A program made the translations under genes and the position numbers. DNA of 56,066 nt, the filler included, from Bipalium vagum (taxonomy: Eukaryota), in the NCBI GenBank assembly GCA_037834085.1. It is 3 parts of 3 records of this genome, joined end to end, with 100 filler letters (N's around TTAATTAATTAA, not from the genome) between each part and the next. Parts side by side here need not be neighbours in the genome. Positions count along the whole stretch, not along the records: positions 1 to 18,210 come from JBBMKC010036231.1; 2 more parts are not named here. One strand, 5' to 3'. Below the pieces are notes generated by a model. The model worked only from the letters and a program-made list of their open reading frames with translations. It made no database searches and was not told the DNA's origin. Positions 1,696 through 30,699 of the stretch are shown here, piece after piece (position 1 is the stretch's first letter; each line of letters opens with the position of its first letter).

Positions 1696-2310
1696 CTACA
1701 ATGAGAGAATGTAATCCAAAGCAACAATTCACAATAATTGATAAAAAAAATTTTAAAACGAAATTTTATGTAAAAATAGGAAAAATTATGTAAATGATTC
1801 ATATAATATTATGTATAAAAATTTTATTTAAAATGGAACTTAATTGATTTTTCTGGAATATTATTTCCATAATTTATTATTTTACATTGATTTATTATTA
1901 TATTTTTTATTATAATTATTTATTTAAAATAATTATTGGTGTCATGAGCTTCAAAGAGAGAGATTATTTAAAATCTAATACAAAATTATTTACCTGTTTA
2001 AAATTTATTGATTTATTTTACTATTAATTTTATTTATTGGCATATGGTATTGATCGAACTCAATAAGTCAAAATTGAACGTAATATTTATTTCGCGAAGA
2101 TAATTGAATAGTTTAAAAAGTGCCTCTCATTTACTGAATATTTAAAGATATTAATTTTATTAATTATTTTATTTTAATTAATTATTTTTCTTAAGAATTT
2201 ATCTAACCTTAAAAATTTTTAATTTTAATTTACGAACATGGTTAATAAATTACTCTAAATATATTTTTAAAAATTTTAATTTAAATTTTATCTTTATAAA
2301 TTAATAATTT

Positions 2311-2382
<72 letters not shown>

Positions 2383-5300
2383 TCAAATGTAGTGTCGTTT
2401 TTTTTAGTTCATTACAGACGGGATTCTTATCATTGATTATAGTTTTACATGGCTTGTAATAATTCAGACCTTTCTAAACACGAAGCCCTTTGTAAAGACA
2501 CATAAAAAAGGAACTCCTGGAAATCTATTTTTATAAAATGGTCATAGACACATATATTATTAATAGATCGCCATTTTTGTCGCTATGGTAATAAAAAAGC
2601 TTATGAAAACGACGAGGGACTTTTGAGAATTCCAACTGCCGACATGAAAAGAATAATAAATAAATAAAATCTGAATCCGATGAAAATAACGACAAAATTA
2701 AATCCATTATTTGTCAGTTTCTCTTTCCAGTGGGATGTGAGAACTAATTGCGTTTGGGATAATTATCCAAATAAAAAATGTCCGTGATTATTTCCATGCA
2801 TGTCGAACTAAGAGGGAAGCTTTGTTAAAAATAAATGTTCTCCGAAAAGGGACAGACAAATCGACTTTTCTAAATCCAATTAAGCACCAAAGCTTTGTTG
2901 TACAATACTGGCCTTGTCCTTTTAAAAGTTTATGGTGAACATAACAGTAGAAAAGAGAACAAGGTTTATTTTAATCGGGGATAAAAAACGGCTTCAATCA
3001 CCAATCTAATCAGAACAAGACCATAAAAAATAATATATATAAACATGAATAATAATATTATTATTATTTATATTATAAATACAGAGTGTCCCTGTGAGAT
3101 ATATTGAAAATTAGTTGGGGGATGTAGCTCAGTGGTCAGAGCAGTGCATGCGCATGTGAAGGTCCCGGGTTTGAATCCCGGTATCTCCGATTAATTTTCA
3201 ACTAATAGTCCCAAAAGAAGATTTACCAATTAGAACATTTTATAAATATAAAGCATTTTTGTTTAAATAAAGTAATGTTAAACCTTTTTTTAGCTCAATA
3301 TTTGAAAATTCATTATGCACGCTTCAAGGTGCCACAACGGGCAGAAATCGAAATGTTTTTTACCTAAAAGTATCAATGTATGTTTCATGACCTACAAAAT
3401 GACCTATGTTGGGTTTTTGACCTACATAGAAACCAAAGTCCATAATAACAGGAAAGATAAAATTGGCAACCAACGATTATATTTTTATTAACAAATTCAT
3501 CGTTTCTTCAAAGCTCTTATGGTATAGTGTAACCACACGACCTCTTGGAAAAAATCACCTCTGAGCTGATTATGTGCTCCGTGCACAGCTTTCAGCCTTT
3601 CTTTGATCTTGTCGTTGCAGCTTTCGAAGTTCTGTGTGCGGACATTGCGCTCATAATCAACAAATTGATATTTATGACAAACAGACTCATGTACATACAC
3701 GTTTTGTGTAAGTCGCGATTACCCCCACCTCCTCCAGTGTTCATTTGGACCACCTAACAAGACAGGACTTTTATCAAAATATTTTTTATTATTATCCCAA
3801 TTTCTAAAGAATTTCTTGGATCTGTTATTTTGGAATCTCCAAGCCTCGCCGTCGATAGTTCTGTTAGTTCGATTCATAATGTCATCGTACTGGTTGCACA
3901 TATTGATTTACTGTAGAAAATAATCTTAATTTAAGTTTGATTTATATGATGAACTTATCCAATGAGGCAATGTGCCAAAAATGACCTATTATTTTCCCTT
4001 GTGTCAAATATGACCTGCTCATTACCCAATGTGTGTAATTTGGCCTACAATGTTGCAATAAGTCGAAGAAAAAAATTGTCCAAAATGTTTATCGAAGAGG
4101 TAGCTCAAATTCAGTTACCGTAAGATAACTAAATGCAAAATTTCAGAAAAACAACAGAGTCCATCTAGGCCAACAATGTTCAGCCTGGCCAAGGCATATG
4201 AAACATTTGGGTCCGTAGCAGACAGAAATTTCTCCATCTCTCGTTTCATTGATTTTGATTGGTCTCCCAGATGTATCGATTTGACTGTTCTTGACCATTT
4301 CTTATGGCGATATCTTTAAGATAAAGTTCATACAAATTACCAAACAACAATTACACAACTGAAGCATAACATTTCTCCACAATCACTTTGATTTCAACGC
4401 ACTTAGGCGCCATGCTATAAAAAGATCCGAAAGTTTTGAGGCTGTCAGGGGCGGTCATTTTTGTGAAATCATATTTAAATTGTGCATTTTTGCAATGTCG
4501 GTATTTACATAGACCTAAAAAAATTGCTTCCCAGATGATCAAAGAGAATTATTCTGGACACCGTTGCTAGCTTCGACACAGTCGATCTTCGGTATTATCA
4601 CAGAAAGACGAGAAATGCAGAGAAAGATTAATTGCGTACGAGTCACATGCATGTCTAGTCACGAGAAAGGATATTGTATTACCCGGAAAGAACTACTACA
4701 CATCTACAATTTTTGCAAGCATTTCAATCATCACTTGTTAGGGAAAAGGTTTACACTACGTACCGATCACAATGTTATATTAAACCACTACACATTGATG
4801 GTTTTGGGTACTTTCAGATCTTCATGTTCTATAGCTCTTTCTATTACGTACTTGAAGACTATAAACCCTGTTGAAATGGTATTTTTGGTACCCTCGTGTA
4901 CTACCCTTTTTGATTTTTCTTCTTCCTTTACATCTTTCTCAGTTATTGAGTTTCTAATCTTTTTTTGCATTTATGATTTTTTCTGTCTGGATAGATGTAT
5001 TCTTTGCTAATCTCTCCTTAATAATATCCGGCTCTTTATCAATCTCTTTTAGTCTCATGTTAGTGACCTATGAATTAATCCTTTTATCAAGATACTTTTA
5101 TATTTTTCTTTACAGAAACATTTGTTTGGAGTATATAGTTCTGTATCCGTCTCCGTTCTCTATATACTGGTCTCTAATTGATTCTTCCCTTTCTCTTTTT
5201 TAATAAGATATAAAATGGCAGTTTTTCATCTTTTTCTTTCTCCATCGTTAATTTTATATTTTCATGTAGACTATTTATGAATGTAAGAAATGGATCGATA

Positions 5301-8300
5301 TGATTATCAATCTTCAATATTAATATTGATATTAATATTCAATATTTCCTCGATACTTATCGATTTTCATTTCTAAGTGATCCATGAGCAGTGTTAAAAG
5401 TCTTGGTCGATTTATTTTCAAAAATTTTCTCGATGTTGTGATTTGCGGTTTTTTATGCATCAATCGAGATTCATAATAGATATGGCGGCGAAAAACGTGC
5501 ATATCAATGGGATTCGATTTAAACAACAAAGTTTTAACAGTGGTTATAATTTTTTTGGCTCTCAAAAAGCGAACCATTTCAATGAGTAATATGTGAAGTC
5601 TGGTTTCAAAAAAAGGAATTCATCTTTCGTTGTCTTAGACCTACAATGAAGATTATTCATCAAATAAAACATTCATTTCTCATTCTCTCAAGTTTGACCT
5701 TTGACAAAACGATGAAGTAATAATATATTTCAACAATTCTATTGTCTTTCTTTAATTCGCTTGAACTTGTGAAGTTTATCTCTATGGATTTCTGACATCA
5801 TTATAATCAATAATAACGTAAACAACACGTGAATAAAATGAAAAATCAATATTTTATTAAAATTGATAATATTTTATTAATATTCATCAATATTAAAAAT
5901 AATAGATATTAATAATAAATTATTATTATTTATTATTATTATTATTGTTTTTTTTATTATTATTGTTTTTTTTATTATTATTGTTTTTATTATTATTATT
6001 TATTGTTATTATTATTTATTATTAATATTATTAATATTATTAATATTTTAAAATGATGTATTTTTGGAGTGGTAATTTTTTTCATGTTTTATTAAAAAAA
6101 ATTCAAATTTAATAGAAAAATGTAAAATATTTAATTAAACCCATCTTTCCCCATTTTTTAACAATGGCCATTAAACGAGCAAGGACGTGGTGCGACATTA
6201 TAGTGCTGGAACATGATATTCTTATCAAATTTGGCCTGGAATATTCAATCGTTTTCTTTAATCCAACAGTAGGACAACATAATTTTTTTTCATGCCAATC
6301 ACTGTTTTGAGACGGTCGTGTGGCATCAAAACGTCAAAATTCCTTTTCAATCCAAAGTTATCCATTTTTTTCAATCGTAATCAATATCAAAAGAGAATAT
6401 TTAAATAAATATTTTATTTTTATATATTAACAAAATAATATATAATTAAAATATATATAATTAATTCTTGATTATATATAATCAATTTTTAATTAAATAT
6501 TAGGTGTACAAACAAGTTTTAAAACGTTTTTATTAAGCATATTTCTTCAATTTAATCTTGAATATTATTTATTGTAAACATTCTATATTTGTAGCATTTT
6601 ATCGATTTTATTTAATAATCTAATAATAATAATCGAAGTTTAAACGTAATATTTTAGATTAAGAAACTATGACTGATAAATTATTTATTTGTCACTGCAT
6701 TCGCTATGAATTTCATCATGGAAAATCGGCTGCAGCTGCCTATGCATCTAAATGTCCCATACGTGGAGATGGTATTGTTTCCAAAAGTACTTAGAAATTT
6801 TTGTTTCGCAGATTTTGAGCAGCAAATTTCAGCGTGAACGTTCATGAAAGTAACGGGGCTTAAATTTAAATTCATTAAAAACACAAGAGGAATTTGCTGA
6901 AAACCTTGGAGTAACTCAACAAACGATTTCCAATCAATTGCGTGTCATGGAAAAAATTCAAATGTATTGAAAGTGGATACCAGGCACATTGAGTCAGAAA
7001 AATAAAGATGGCCGTATCATCATGTGCTCCAATCTCCTTACTAAACAGTTTAGAAAATCTTTCTTGTAGAAATTAGTCACTGGTGACGAGAAATAGATCT
7101 ATTTCGACAATCCTAAAAGAATAAAACGCTTAGAAGATCCAGGCCAATCAACAGAATGCAAATCAAAACGTCCAGTGCATTGCAATAGACTAAAATATTT
7201 ATTTGGTTGGATATCAAGGGCATGCTGTATCATGAATTTCTTCAACCGAATGAAACTGTTAATGGTGATCTCTATAAACAAAAGTTGCAGCGATTGAATG
7301 AACAAATCTAAAACGTTTATTAACAGGCAGATTGGCGTCCAATAAAATTGCTTCATGATAACGTTATGTTATTACAAGATCAGTTAAGTATGGGTTAGTA
7401 ACACCGGTTTATAGTCCCAATTTCGAGCCAACAGACTATTATCTGATTCTCTCAATGAAAAATTCCTTGCCTGGTGTGTACGCTTGCGAAGGCTTGAGGA
7501 AATCCGAAGAAATGGGTTGATGACTTCCTCAAATCAAAGAACGTAAAGCTTCTTTCAAACCGCAATTCATTCCGTATCTGAGAAATGTTGTAAGGCGATA
7601 GACAGCAATGGTGAATATTTTGAAGACCAATTGTGTCATTCTTCTTTATAATAAATGTGGAAACATTTGAAAAAATCGATTTCAAATGTATTTGTGCACA
7701 TAATATATTTTTAAATATAATTAATTTTTAATTAAATATTATTTCCATTTTTATACAATACGAAATGGCTGCCCCTCACCCATTATTATTTATTATATTA
7801 TCTTTCTGGTGACAACGGACAAAACTTGACACTTTCAATCAATAGACCTGGTGCAGGTTCGAAATATAAATATTGATTTAAAAATTTTCTCATTACGTTT
7901 TACATTGTCAATGGTAATCTTTTCCAGAAATAATATTGTATACATTCATTATTGACAAAACGTAATTAACACCCATGATAAAAGTCTTTGCCCACCTTGA
8001 CAGCTTCAAGATTGCCAAGTATCGCAGCCGCGTGCAACGGAGTGTGACCATTGGTGTGTCTGAAATCGAGATGAGCGCCTCCTTCGACGAGAATCTTTAT
8101 GATTTCGACCGGTTGACTGAGGCTGCAAGCTTTGATGAGAGGAGTCTCTGAAAAACGAAAAGGAAACCCGCTAAAATGTCAAGTCACACACCATCTCAAC
8201 AAGTTACCTCCAGTTTCTTTATTTTGAAAGTTTGGATCCAGGCCCTTGTTCAAAAGTTTCGCAATTTTGGCAGTGTCACCGGCTCCGATGTACTCCATGA

Positions 8301-14618: not shown

Positions 14619-15756
14619 TTAGGATGTGTCGATGTCCCGAATCTCGGCCAAGATGGTTTGTCGGTGTTGTTCCAGTGTGTCGATTCCATCGTTGAGGTGC
14701 AAATGGCTAAGAGGGAAACTGAGAGTAGATTTCATCGATCCACTTTGTAACGCTTTCGAAAAGACCTCCATCGAATGCTCCTCTCTCATCGCAATCATGC
14801 CCAACTCCTGCCAGTGATCCTCTTCGGGGTCATAGTTGATCAGCGTGTTGAATCCCGGATACTCGATCAGCTCGTCTGTGCGATACTCGACTACAAGAAT
14901 CACGGTTAAATTACAAAGGTATCACTAGTTCGTTGTCTTCCTCTTTCTTTCCATCCATCTTTATTCTCTCTCGCTCCCTCCAACGCACGTATATCAAAAT
15001 TTACTTACCAGAGTTTTCCCTTCGAATTTTGCTATCGTCGCCGATGAACTTCAGTTCCGAGGGTTTCGTTTCGATTTGCCGCAGCCAGCCAGGAGGATAA
15101 CCGAGATAGCGCATCCGATAAATGTGCAGCGGCAGACCGTACGTCGACAAACCCAACGCCCGCCTAAGCTTATCACTGGAATAGCCGAACAAAGGTCCAA
15201 ATTAAAATATTTTATATTAATTCAAAATTTAATCGATCGATCGATAGTCGAAAATTATTATTAATATTAAAATTAATATCTATCGATTGATCGTTTGAAT
15301 TTAAAAATTAATAATTTAGATCGATCGATCGATTCATTCATTCATTTTGTTTACCTCAACTTGCCCGGCCTGATGTTGCTACTGTCGTTGGCCGCCTCGT
15401 GGAGTCGCTTGTTGCTGAAAATATAAGACGTTTCAAGACGCAAATCATAATGCAATCCATCCTACCAATGTTTTGGGATATGAGACCTTTGTCTGTGAAG
15501 CTTTTCGTCGGCGGACTTCAGCTCCAGTAAATCGGAATTGCATTTGTACAAGATAGCCCTGAACAATGTTCAACTAGTTAAGAGTGGACGAGAAACAAAA
15601 GTGGATTTACTTTTTATCTTCCAATTTAGATTTTGGTACTCGGTCGCACCTTTTGGTAGAAGGTTAAAATTAGTGACAATGATAGATTAACTGATTAGTT
15701 TACTTGTCTTCGTTTCCGCACCGATCTATGGTAAATAGGGAGTCGAGTTCATCCAT
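14619..15756 (-). CDS. ZCCHC8: ZCCHC8-like PSP-domain protein (NEXT complex scaffold), ~227 aa, 6 exons
   Basis: Exons 15756-15704, 15649-15611, 15558-15466, 15414-15355, 15175-15009 and 14890-14619 (684 nt) have GT-AG boundaries and consistent phases. PSP motif RPGKLSDKLRRALGL..LPLHIYRMRYLGYPPGWL followed by LIEYPGFN..DHWQELG is ZCCHC8-type rather than SF3B2-type. Confidence 0.85.
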
Positions 15757-29245: not shown

Positions 29246-30005
29246 CTCACCATAATAATATGTTGAAATTTAATTGGTAATTATGTATATGATGGTTCTA
29301 CTAGACTTTGATACTTAAATAAATGTAATAAATTTAAAATTCCAACCTGATTATGTTTTTTTCTGTTACTTCTATTTAATTAGTATTCAGTTACATGTTG
29401 GTTTAATGTTCCTTCTATCTGTTCTGCTTTGGAAAGTTTTTCTGTTTGAGAATAAAATTAATAAGTTATTATTACCTTTTTTCTTCATTTCTCTTAAATT
29501 TGTGAATACATAACCATCTAATATGAACTTAATAACCAAATTTATCTTTAAAAATTTTTAAATAATGTTTAATTATATTCCTTAATGCAGACATAACGAT
29601 AAACGTTTTTTTCTTTTGTTTTCTTAATTCATTTTTCTCTTCAACATTAGTTCTTTGATATCAATATTTTTCATATCCTTTAACCGATTTTATTTCATTT
29701 TTATAAATTGCTTCGTTTCTAAGAAGTTATTTAAATAACTTAGTATTTATATGATCTCAATTCTGTAAATGTTTTATTGATCTTAACTGGCACAATAAAA
29801 TGGCAGTCTCTGAAATTCCATGTCACATATTTCACAATTAAATATTTCACGAATTCTAATTTGATTATATAAAATTTAAAGTGACTTTGTCATTTCAAAT
29901 ATTTATTAAAGCTACTTTTCCTTGAAAATATATATATCACAAACCTCTCAATAAAAATTAATAATCATCCTATTTTTCCAAAGATATAAAAACTTATTAC
30001 CTCAT

Positions 30006-30251
30006 TGTTAGTTGAAAATTAATCGAAGATACCCGGATTTGATCCCGGGACCTTCACACGCGCATGGACTGCTCTGACCGCTGAGCTACATCCCCAAATT
30101 AATTTCAAATTATCTCACATACCCCTCCTTTAAAGCTCATATCCATACCCTTTACCACCCCGAGTCTCTAACTTTAATTTCCTTTCCTTTTGCTTATTCA
30201 ACTTTCAAGACCTTGTCCGCTGGTTGGGCTTCTAGTGTGGTCGCCATGTTA
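30006..30251 (-). mobile_element. TRIM-like element: TAACA + PBS + 127-bp interior + PPT + tRNA-containing 3' LTR (5' LTR mostly missing)
   Basis: Minus strand reads TAACA|TGGCGACCAC (PBS 30246-30237) ... AAAGGAGGGGTA (PPT 30131-30120)|TGTGAG...CTAACA (LTR 30119-30006). Confidence 0.75.
30024..30095 (-). tRNA. tRNA-Ala-derived sequence, second copy, probably non-functional (embedded in LTR)
   Basis: GGGGATGTAGCTCAGCGGTCAGAGC...GGTCCCGGGATCAAATCCGGGTATCTTCG; same disrupted anticodon arm as the 3118 copy. Confidence 0.65.
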
Positions 30252-30699
30252 ACAGCTATTTCAATAAATTCAGACATGATTTCAAAAATTTTATTATTCT
30301 AATAAAAATAAAAATACTTAAACAAATTTCCTTAAATTAATAAATTTAAATAAAGTGTCTCTTTTTTATTTATTATTTTAAAAAGATATTTTAAAATTAA
30401 CTAATACATTAAATTAATGAATATTCATATCGGATTTTAAAAAGGACACTTTATAAAAATTTAAAAATTCAAAAATATGTTCAAATACTCACACTCATGA
30501 AATCAAGTTTTAACTAATTCTTATCACATATGTATAAGAAATATACGTAATGTGTAAAATGATAAAATTACAGAGTTTTCAGATTTTCTGTCGAACTAAT
30601 TGTTTTACATACGACTTATATTTACCTAATATCAGCTTTAAATAGTTTTTAAAGAACTTTTAAATAAGCACCATTAGAAGACGCATAAAAATTGTTAAT

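What the first reader, a model, noticed from the sequence alone, without database searches (positions are those of the whole stretch)
3088..3212. Solo tRNA-LTR with clean 5-bp target-site duplication, inserted into a DNA-transposon terminus inside SHANK intron 5
Seen: GTCCC|TGTGAG...CTAATA|GTCCC. Removing the insert restores TA-CAGAGTGTCCCAAAAG, which resembles a Tc1/mariner TIR start. Similarity with copy 2 begins ~25 bp upstream of the tRNA and stops exactly at the TG and CA/TA termini. Established: SINE retroposition does not copy sequence upstream of the Pol III start, whereas LTR integrases make fixed 4-6 bp TSDs and LTR-LTR recombination leaves solo LTRs. Inference: independent evidence of integrase-mediated mobility. 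From memory, animal tRNA-LTR TRIMs were reported with 4-bp TSDs, so a 5-bp TSD would point to a different partner integrase.
Basis: partly seen in the sequence, partly recalled or inferred. Interest (0 to 1): 0.7.

Follow-up and report, generated by a model that had tools for sequence, protein, structure and literature searches.

The report
tRNA-bearing mini-retrotransposon targeted by a LINE
This 115-base insert in an intron of a likely flatworm gene is likely the leftover end of a tiny tRNA-bearing retrotransposon that duplicates five target bases and is likely moved by Gypsy elements, and many of its copies elsewhere in the genome are interrupted at one exact base by a second, LINE-type retrotransposon.

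Summary
Confirmed. 3093-3207 is a solo LTR of a Helenus-type TRIM (tRNA-Ala-derived core), flanked by GTCCC, inside a Tc1/mariner terminal repeat in SHANK coding intron 5. SHANK's best hits are flatworm. The 5-bp duplication is family-wide: 22 of 27 solo copies exact, none 4 or 6 bp. Every animal Helenus with a stated length in Kojima 2024 has 4 bp, and none is from a flatworm. Two-LTR copies carry a tRNA-Arg primer site and a purine tract. A Gypsy family with the identical 18-nt primer site also makes 5-bp duplications (16 of 24). Window copy 2 is a chimera of another family's LTR and the TRIM under one 5-bp duplication. New beyond the finding: a NeSL-type LINE inserts at one base of this LTR's B-box (34 of 36 unbiased 3' ends; about 1 in 6 exact sites occupied) and at the same base of a true tRNA-Ala gene. 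The scan had already found this TRIM family on other pieces of the genome; those listings do not mention the LINE. Verdict: new variant of known kinds.

The parts
3088..3092 (+). Left copy of the 5-bp target-site duplication (bases 7-11 of the host terminal repeat)
   Evidence: family table
3093..3207 (+). Solo LTR of the Helenus-type TRIM, 115 bp, TG...TA (family TG...CA)
3118..3189 (+). tRNA-Ala-derived core with A and B boxes; anticodon arm disrupted; 59 of 73 columns identical to tRNA-Ala(TGC) gene L315 (my count on the alignment)
3165..3169 (+). Target site of the NeSL-type LINE, empty in this copy: the LINE 3' end joins at 3169, and 3165-3168 are usually lost
   Evidence: loose ends at 3169
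3195..3198 (+). T4 run just behind the tRNA core, a possible weak Pol III stop (inferred)
   Evidence: sequence
3208..3212 (+). Right copy of the 5-bp target-site duplication
3080..3081 (+). TA target dinucleotide of the host DNA transposon
3082..4532 (+). Decayed Tc1/mariner-like host element: matches family copies at 3211-3359, 4073-4226 and 4236-4532, split by another insert at about 3360-4072; right end uncertain
1696..7995 (-). SHANK intron after coding exon 5 (GT...AG), 6.3 kb, holding the insert
30001..30498 (-). Copy 2: complete chimeric element between two identical 5-bp repeats (30498-30494 and 30005-30001)
30247..30493 (-). 5' LTR of copy 2: 247 bp, TG...CA, belongs to a different repeat family (1,720 candidates, 40 scored, most matching end to end)
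30120..30246 (-). TRIM internal part of copy 2: primer-binding site, 127 bp, polypurine tract
30006..30119 (-). 3' tRNA-bearing LTR of copy 2, 114 bp, TG...CA

Best explanation
The insert is a lone LTR of a roughly 360-bp non-coding LTR retrotransposon with a tRNA-Ala-derived core and fixed 5-bp target duplications, likely left by recombination between its two LTRs, likely transcribed from the tRNA promoter and likely copied and integrated by Gypsy elements that use the same tRNA-Arg primer. Shown: two-LTR copies with primer site and purine tract; 5-bp duplications; Gypsy-like elements with the same primer site and duplication length; chimeras joined at the primer site. Inferred: Pol III starts at the tRNA core, reads through the T4 run of the 5' LTR and stops at that of the 3' LTR; the RNA is packaged in Gypsy particles, primed by tRNA-Arg and integrated with a 5-bp stagger; strand transfer between co-packaged molecules gives chimeras such as window copy 2. 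Because the LTR still looks like tRNA-Ala, a NeSL-type LINE inserts into it at one base of the B-box (shown as junctions; cleavage and target-primed reverse transcription inferred), so the TRIM's many copies serve as that LINE's main landing sites in this assembly.
For: Duplication: 22 of 27 solo LTRs exact 5 bp, 3 with one mismatch, 2 none; 0 exact at 4 or 6 bp; control 0 of 870. Two-LTR form: 55 exact LTR-primer-site junctions; L032 is 362 bp with an exact 5-bp repeat. Primer site is 17 of 18 complementary to tRNA-Arg(ACG) gene L125 plus CCA. Partner: family G1 has the identical 18-nt primer site followed by gag, protease and RT-like frames (L095, read by eye); family G2 has RT_RNaseH_2 at E 2.6e-31 behind it; G1 solo LTRs 16 of 24 exact 5 bp, 0 at 4 or 6; G3 8 of 17. 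Chimeras: copy 2; L138, where a TRIM LTR end precedes a gag that carries its own LTR in most of the 29 other fetched copies and a TRIM end in none; L218; L319 has a G2-type LTR end before a TRIM internal part. LINE: RVT_1 E 3e-17, Ulp1 protease E 4e-7, weak match to the R2 zinc knuckle and endonuclease E 0.0027. 34 of 36 matches to a LINE-only 3' pattern continue into the LTR at the same base. 18 of 26 5' junctions fall at LTR bases 70-73, each with a different truncation point. L330 holds a 4.48-kb LINE in the 5' LTR of a two-LTR TRIM whose own 5-bp repeat is intact. L339 is the same junction in a true tRNA-Ala gene.
Against: No transcript or start site was seen, so Pol III use is untested; this copy has a B-box substitution at 3172. 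5 of 27 solos, 8 of 24 G1 solos and 9 of 17 G3 solos lack an exact repeat. G1 LTRs end TA...CT, unlike the TRIM's TG...CA, so G1 may supply primer and RT but not be the best integrase partner; several families share the primer, and no single partner is singled out. No intact Gypsy or LINE copy was seen in this fragmented assembly. The primer site has one mismatch to the tRNA-Arg genes found. The 40 scored copies are the closest to the window copy out of 2,406 candidates, so older subfamilies are under-sampled. Whether the 247-bp LTR of copy 2 belongs to a coding Gypsy was not determined. The LINE also hits a real tRNA-Ala gene and only 2 intact tRNA-Ala genes were found, so preference for the TRIM per target is not shown.
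Confidence: 0.88

Rival explanations
1. The lone LTR was integrated as such, from a single-LTR DNA product of reverse transcription, rather than left by recombination.
For: Solo copies are the majority of the closest copies (27 of 38 scorable). Gypsy LTRs followed only by an 18-nt primer-site copy exist in this genome, showing that aberrant products get integrated.
Against: Two-LTR copies with the same 5-bp duplication exist, and solo formation by recombination is the accepted route for Helenus (PMC10886601 section 3.2). The two routes leave the same sequence.
Confidence: 0.12
2. The mobilising partner is a Copia or Bel/Pao element, the groups usually linked to 5-bp duplications, as for fungal Helenus.
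For: Kojima links 5 bp to Copia. Most of the 30 non-TRIM-type primer-site matches have no reading frame behind them and cannot be classed.
Against: Those with frames show gag-protease-RT order or RT_RNaseH_2 and make 5-bp duplications themselves. The chimeras L138 and L218 join the TRIM LTR to gag frames of the same type. Copia and Bel/Pao were not searched for directly.
Confidence: 0.07
3. The LINE-LTR junctions come from one ancestral fusion, or from a LINE that carries the LTR end as its own 3' tail, not from site-specific insertion.
For: 44 of 73 LINE loci showed no LTR 5' half within the stretch held; both chimeras L138 and L218 carry the LINE end, which would be a coincidence under independent insertion.
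Against: 29 of 73 loci have the LTR 5' half directly upstream, and 5 more of 16 after longer fetches; inserts range from 66 bp to 4.48 kb with different truncation points; the TRIM's own 5-bp repeat surrounds the composite exactly in L161, L167, L170, L173 and L330; one copy continues into a tRNA-Ala gene's unique flank instead.
Confidence: 0.05
4. It is a tRNA-derived SINE, or a hairpin MITE moved by a DNA transposase.
For: The core is 81% like tRNA-Ala, and the insert folds into a long stem (z -2.9).
Against: 25 bp precede the tRNA start, there is no tail, the duplication is fixed at 5 bp, the ends are TG...CA without long terminal inverted repeats, and two-LTR forms carry a primer site and purine tract.
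Confidence: 0.03

Closest known systems
Helenus (tRNA-containing TRIMs, 'TRIMp3'; Kojima 2024, PMC10886601)
   Same: Short non-coding two-LTR element (about 360 bp; Helenus 311-1263 bp), tRNA-derived A/B-box core, primer site unrelated to that core, purine tract, many solo LTRs, Gypsy-type primer site using a tRNA 3' end.
   Different: 5-bp duplication where all animal rows of Table S1 give 4 or n.d.; likely flatworm host, a phylum absent from Table 1; tRNA-Arg(ACG) primer; partner link supported by chimeras and matching duplication length, not only by primer similarity. Sequence kinship to named families not tested.
LIN/R5 lineage and NeSL-1_TV of the NeSL clade (Kojima and Jurka 2015, PMC4640811)
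   Same: Endonuclease-at-C-terminus LINE with Ulp1-like protease, precise 3' and variable 5' junctions. Planarian LIN15_SM and LIN25_SM target tRNA-Arg and tRNA-Glu genes; NeSL-1_TV enters tRNA-Pro at nearly the same T-arm position with a small deletion; some LIN25_SM copies sit in SINEL_SM and Polinton-4_SM (S6 Fig).
   Different: Target is tRNA-Ala; nearly all sampled copies sit in a TRIM LTR rather than in tRNA genes (95 exact TRIM-type junctions against 1 gene-type). No RT tree was made, so membership of LIN/R5 is not shown.
ta-TRIM of taeniid tapeworms and its candidate partner lennie (PMC4558846)
   Same: Flatworm TRIM, partner argued from primer site, LTR end and duplication length; 4 bp in Echinococcus, 5 bp in Taenia.
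   Different: LTR about 198 bp, tRNA-Leu primer, no tRNA-derived LTR in the passages read.
Tx1L of Xenopus (LINE targeting another transposon)
   Same: A LINE whose specific target is another mobile element (seen as a reference title; target Tx1D from earlier scan notes and recall).
   Different: Tx1L has an apurinic-type endonuclease and a DNA-transposon target (recalled).

Membership tests
Helenus / TRIM | Shorter than about 1 kb, non-coding, two LTRs | tested here: met
   L032 362 bp, L041 337 bp, L197 343 bp; L010
Helenus / TRIM | Primer-binding site behind the 5' LTR, complementary to a tRNA 3' end | tested here: met
   55 exact junctions; 17 of 18 to tRNA-Arg(ACG) plus CCA
Helenus / TRIM | Polypurine tract before the 3' LTR | tested here: met
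Helenus / TRIM | tRNA-derived sequence with A and B boxes inside the LTR, not a working tRNA | tested here: met
   Rfam 45.7 bits; aligned to tRNA-Ala(TGC) with the anticodon arm disrupted; ARAGORN calls vary between copies
Helenus / TRIM | Fixed 4-6 bp target duplication and TG...CA ends | tested here: met
   22 of 27 solos exact 5 bp
Animal Helenus as described | 4-bp target duplication | tested here: not met
   0 of 30 script-scored copies exact at 4 bp against Table S1
Helenus / TRIMp3 | Transcription by RNA polymerase III from the tRNA core | not testable with these tools
   no RNA run listed; also unvalidated for Helenus itself
Helenus / TRIM | Common descent with named Helenus families | not tested
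   Kojima argues multiple origins; no alignment to his sequences made
tRNA-derived SINE | 5' end at the tRNA start, 3' tail, variable-length duplication | tested here: not met
NeSL-clade LINE (the element inserting into the LTR) | Reverse transcriptase | tested here: met
   RVT_1 E 3e-17, L331
NeSL-clade LINE (the element inserting into the LTR) | C-terminal zinc knuckle and restriction-like endonuclease | tested here: met
   only PDB hit is an R2 protein's C-terminal part, E 0.0027, weak; motifs by eye
NeSL-clade LINE (the element inserting into the LTR) | N-terminal Ulp1-like protease (NeSL subset) | tested here: met
   Peptidase_C48 E 4e-7, above cut-off, L330
NeSL-clade LINE (the element inserting into the LTR) | Precise 3' and variable 5' junction at a repeated target | tested here: met
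NeSL-clade LINE (the element inserting into the LTR) | RT phylogeny groups with R5/LIN | not tested
   no named reference came back: best hit unnamed, 47%
Ty3/Gypsy (partner families G1, G2) | gag-protease-RT-RNase H order, integrase last | tested here: inconclusive
   gag, protease, RT start by eye in L095; RT_RNaseH_2 in L092; integrase not seen
Tc1/mariner (host element) | TA target, terminal inverted repeats, DD(E/D) transposase | tested here: inconclusive
   TA and inverted ends about 1.3 kb apart in L067, L081; transposase motifs by eye; Pfam only DUF4817 E 0.005; subfamily not fixed

The most novel reading that the evidence does not exclude
A three-tier parasite chain: Gypsy elements carry a tRNA-mimicking TRIM, and the TRIM's thousands of tRNA-Ala look-alikes have become the main habitat of a site-specific LINE that originally targeted tRNA-Ala genes. 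The TRIM works as a decoy that spares the host's tRNA genes, while each LINE insertion cuts the TRIM's promoter, so the LINE limits the TRIM and has adapted to it.
Probability: 0.5. Interest if true: 0.72.

Novelty: new variant of a known kind. Interest (0 to 1): 0.57.

Why it matters
Kojima 2024 leaves open which autonomous elements move animal Helenus and uses 4 versus 5 bp to separate Gypsy- from Copia-dependent groups. This family breaks that split and offers physical links to partners (same primer site, same duplication length, chimeras), so the question becomes testable. The LINE shows how a sequence-specific retrotransposon can survive on a low-copy target by spilling into a mobile mimic of it, which bears on how target specificity persists and shifts. 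Practically, thousands of these LTRs will be mis-annotated as tRNA genes. For SHANK itself the insert is probably inert.

Tried and rejected
First read the sequence joined to the LTR's B-box as a longer Gypsy LTR; translation showed it is a LINE 3' end. First took copy 2 for a TRIM that had lost its 5' LTR; it is a complete chimera. Took an internal stretch of the G3 LTR for its 5' end because it resembles the TRIM start; wrong, the LTR begins about 90 bp further up. Tested whether L138 marks an autonomous Gypsy with tRNA LTRs: rejected, none of the 29 other fetched gag copies has one. (LINE ends) was biased because the query held 37 TRIM bases, so it was repeated with a LINE-only pattern. The script mislabelled L010, L013 and L028 as solo; they have the purine tract and were dropped from the solo count by eye, though they remain in the 870-pair control; L011 and L193 lacked a flank. 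First tRNA-Ala pattern found nothing, the second found 3 places. Exact empty-site pattern: 0. Public runs: one holder, X1, which may be the source of the assembly; no RNA holder listed; no joint that removes the insert, but contigs drop rare variants. Depth on the LTR was about 2.3-2.6e5 against 11-16 on the flanks; the tool warns this is no copy number. tblastn did not link the repeat found in tRNA-Arg genes to the LINE. Homologue search with the LINE RT gave no named relative. Not done: the flank and reading-frame table for the 247-bp LTR family (L349-L378) and a closer look at L319, L043, L124, L023, so its class and duplication length stay open. Literature: 8 searches showed no flatworm Helenus and no LINE targeting a TRIM; Repbase and most subscription journals are not covered.

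Full report
Observation. The 115-bp insert 3093-3207 lies between two GTCCC repeats and holds an Rfam tRNA match at 3118-3189. It sits at bases 7-11 of a Tc1/mariner-like terminal repeat that follows TA at 3080-3081. A search with the right flank gave 218 candidates, 40 scored; in the 29 other loci fetched the repeat runs through the site in register. These belong to a sister family about 77% alike. A relaxed pattern found 9 ends, 4 with one uninterrupted GTCCC; the exact empty site was not found. tblastn with a trematode SHANK places five coding exons upstream and two downstream on the minus strand, so this is coding intron 5, 1696-7995. Of 29 hits to one SHANK exon, the named ones at 61-67% identity are all flatworm, so the host is likely a flatworm; earlier scan notes call it a planarian, which I did not test further.

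The family. The insert has 2,406 first-look candidates in the genome, of which the 40 closest were scored. Two lacked a flank; 11 are ends of longer elements (three of these reassigned by eye); 27 are solo. Of the 27, which include the window copy, 22 have an exact 5-bp repeat, 3 one mismatch, 2 none; none of the 30 script-scored copies is exact at 4 or 6 bp; 0 of 870 mismatched flank pairs match at 5 bp. All five positions vary. An exact LTR-primer-site pattern has 55 matches. In 52 of these loci the script found both ends in 10: 5 exact, 2 with one mismatch, 3 none, two of which were wrong end calls. By eye L010, L048, L208, L213, L216 and L330 are also exact. The two-LTR element is LTR, primer site, about 130 bp, purine tract, LTR. 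The core derives from tRNA-Ala(TGC): 59 of 73 columns match gene L315, with half of the differences in the anticodon arm. The primer site matches tRNA-Arg(ACG) at 17 of 18.

The partner. Thirty places carry the full 18-nt primer site followed by a base other than the TRIM's. Most follow other LTR families. In G1 it is followed by a gag-like frame (L094, L095, L111, L115, L117), then protease- and RT-like frames in L095 (by eye); in G2 by RT_RNaseH_2. Of 30 G1 loci 24 are solo: 16 exact at 5 bp, 3 with one mismatch, none at 4 or 6. Of 30 G3 loci 17 could be scored: 8 exact, 5 with one mismatch; G3 shares the TRIM's last 8 bases but its coding status was not tested. Chimeras join the two systems at the primer site. 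Window copy 2 is a 247-bp LTR of another family, the TRIM internal part and a tRNA LTR, between identical 5-bp repeats; that LTR has 1,720 candidates and most of the 40 scored match end to end, but what it encodes was not determined. L138 and L218 are the reverse: a TRIM LTR end before a gag frame; none of the 29 other fetched copies of the L138 gag has a TRIM end. Plus-strand transfer between co-packaged molecules is the simplest account (inference from the standard LTR cycle as described in PMC10886601). Against a single partner: G1 ends differ from the TRIM's, and several families are involved.

The LINE. Many LTR copies are cut at the B-box by a non-LTR retrotransposon with Ulp1 protease, RT and an R2-like C-terminus (weak). 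A pattern from the LINE end alone has 36 matches; all 36 were read; 34 continue into the LTR at the base equal to window 3169 or have the LTR 5' half upstream, 2 are too short to tell, none is a tRNA gene. Of 73 LINE loci, some overlapping, 29 show the LTR 5' half upstream within the stretch held, and 5 more of 16 after longer fetches. In 26 junctions read, 18 end at LTR bases 70-73, so about four target bases are lost, and truncation points differ. The TRIM's own 5-bp repeat encloses the composite exactly in four solos and in L330, a 4.48-kb copy. Exact patterns count 95 occupied and 476 intact sites, about 1 in 6; the patterns differ in length, so this is rough. A tRNA-Ala-type junction pattern has 2 matches: L338 is a TRIM variant, L339 a true tRNA-Ala gene with the flank of L317. 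Run X1 shows 22 contigs with a LINE-like loose end at 3169, but may be the assembly's source. The window copy's site is empty.

Mechanism. Shown: structure, duplication length, shared primer site, chimeras, LINE junctions. Inferred: Pol III transcription from the core through the first T4 run, packaging and integration by Gypsy machinery, solo formation by recombination, LINE cleavage and target-primed reverse transcription. Whether the LINE prefers the TRIM or only meets it more often is open, since only two intact tRNA-Ala genes were found in this fragmented assembly.

Comparison. It meets every structural feature of Helenus that could be tested, but not the 4-bp rule for animals. PMC10886601: I read parts 1-4 of 6 of the text, the figure and table section, a supplement search and part 11 of 11 of the supplement with all animal rows of Table S1. 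PMC4640811: passages, and of S6 Fig passages of part 1 and all of part 2; it gives tRNA-targeting planarian LINs, a T-arm site for NeSL-1_TV, and LIN25_SM copies in other repeats, so the LINE's behaviour has partial precedent. PMC4558846, PMC12859917, PMC8869645: passages only. Other papers: search listings only. Eight searches showed no flatworm Helenus and no LINE targeting a TRIM; Repbase entries could not be checked and may already hold these families. Earlier scan notes report the same TRIM family on other pieces of this genome and Tx1-like LINEs in tRNA-derived SINEs in other genomes; these are unchecked leads, not support.

Verdict. Observation confirmed, interpretation supported. New variant of known kinds: a 5-bp, Gypsy-linked Helenus-type TRIM in a likely new phylum, serving as the main landing site of a site-specific LINE. 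Interest 0.57.

Noticed in passing
L120, L121, L126 (and a different repeat in L122); L029, L057, L012: A second repeat's end interrupts tRNA-Arg(ACG) genes at the anticodon in 3 loci and is also joined to TRIM copies at three different positions. Looks like another tRNA-targeting LINE, but no coding match was found.
   Followed up: partly
L285-L314: G1 Gypsy LTRs have non-canonical TA...CT ends yet clean 5-bp duplications.
   Followed up: partly
L091-L119: LTRs of at least three families are followed by exactly 18 nt of primer-site sequence and then unrelated DNA, as expected of integrated plus-strand strong-stop products.
   Followed up: no
L123, L124, L125: Primer-site copies read past 18 nt into the tRNA-Arg body. 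The common primer site differs at one base from all 7 gene-type matches, pointing to an unassembled isodecoder or editing.
   Followed up: partly
L103:1500 region: A TRIM with the same internal part but two identical 27-bp LTRs without tRNA core and an exact 5-bp duplication.
   Followed up: no
L138, L218, L225-L254: In these Gypsy families the gag-like frame appears to begin at the LTR/primer-site boundary, so the primer site would be protein-coding (read by eye).
   Followed up: no
L043, L211, L009; window 3093-3205 in run X1: Tandem TRIM arrays (a purine tract before the 5' LTR) and head-to-tail LTR joints.
   Followed up: no
window 3360-4072: A repeated, unclassified 710-bp insert splits the Tc1/mariner host; no Pfam match in two frames tested.
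   Followed up: partly
window 4570-4780 (+) and 6670-7600 (+): The same SHANK intron holds a Gypsy RNase H-like fragment resembling L092 and a mariner-like remnant (by eye).
   Followed up: no
window 14900-15300 (-): Exon-like frames resembling a PSP-domain protein such as ZCCHC8 (label recalled, untested).
   Followed up: no
window 3104-3201: LTR sequence on both sides of the tRNA core extends its acceptor stem by about 14 pairs (z -2.9, 2 of 200 shuffles as good).
   Followed up: partly
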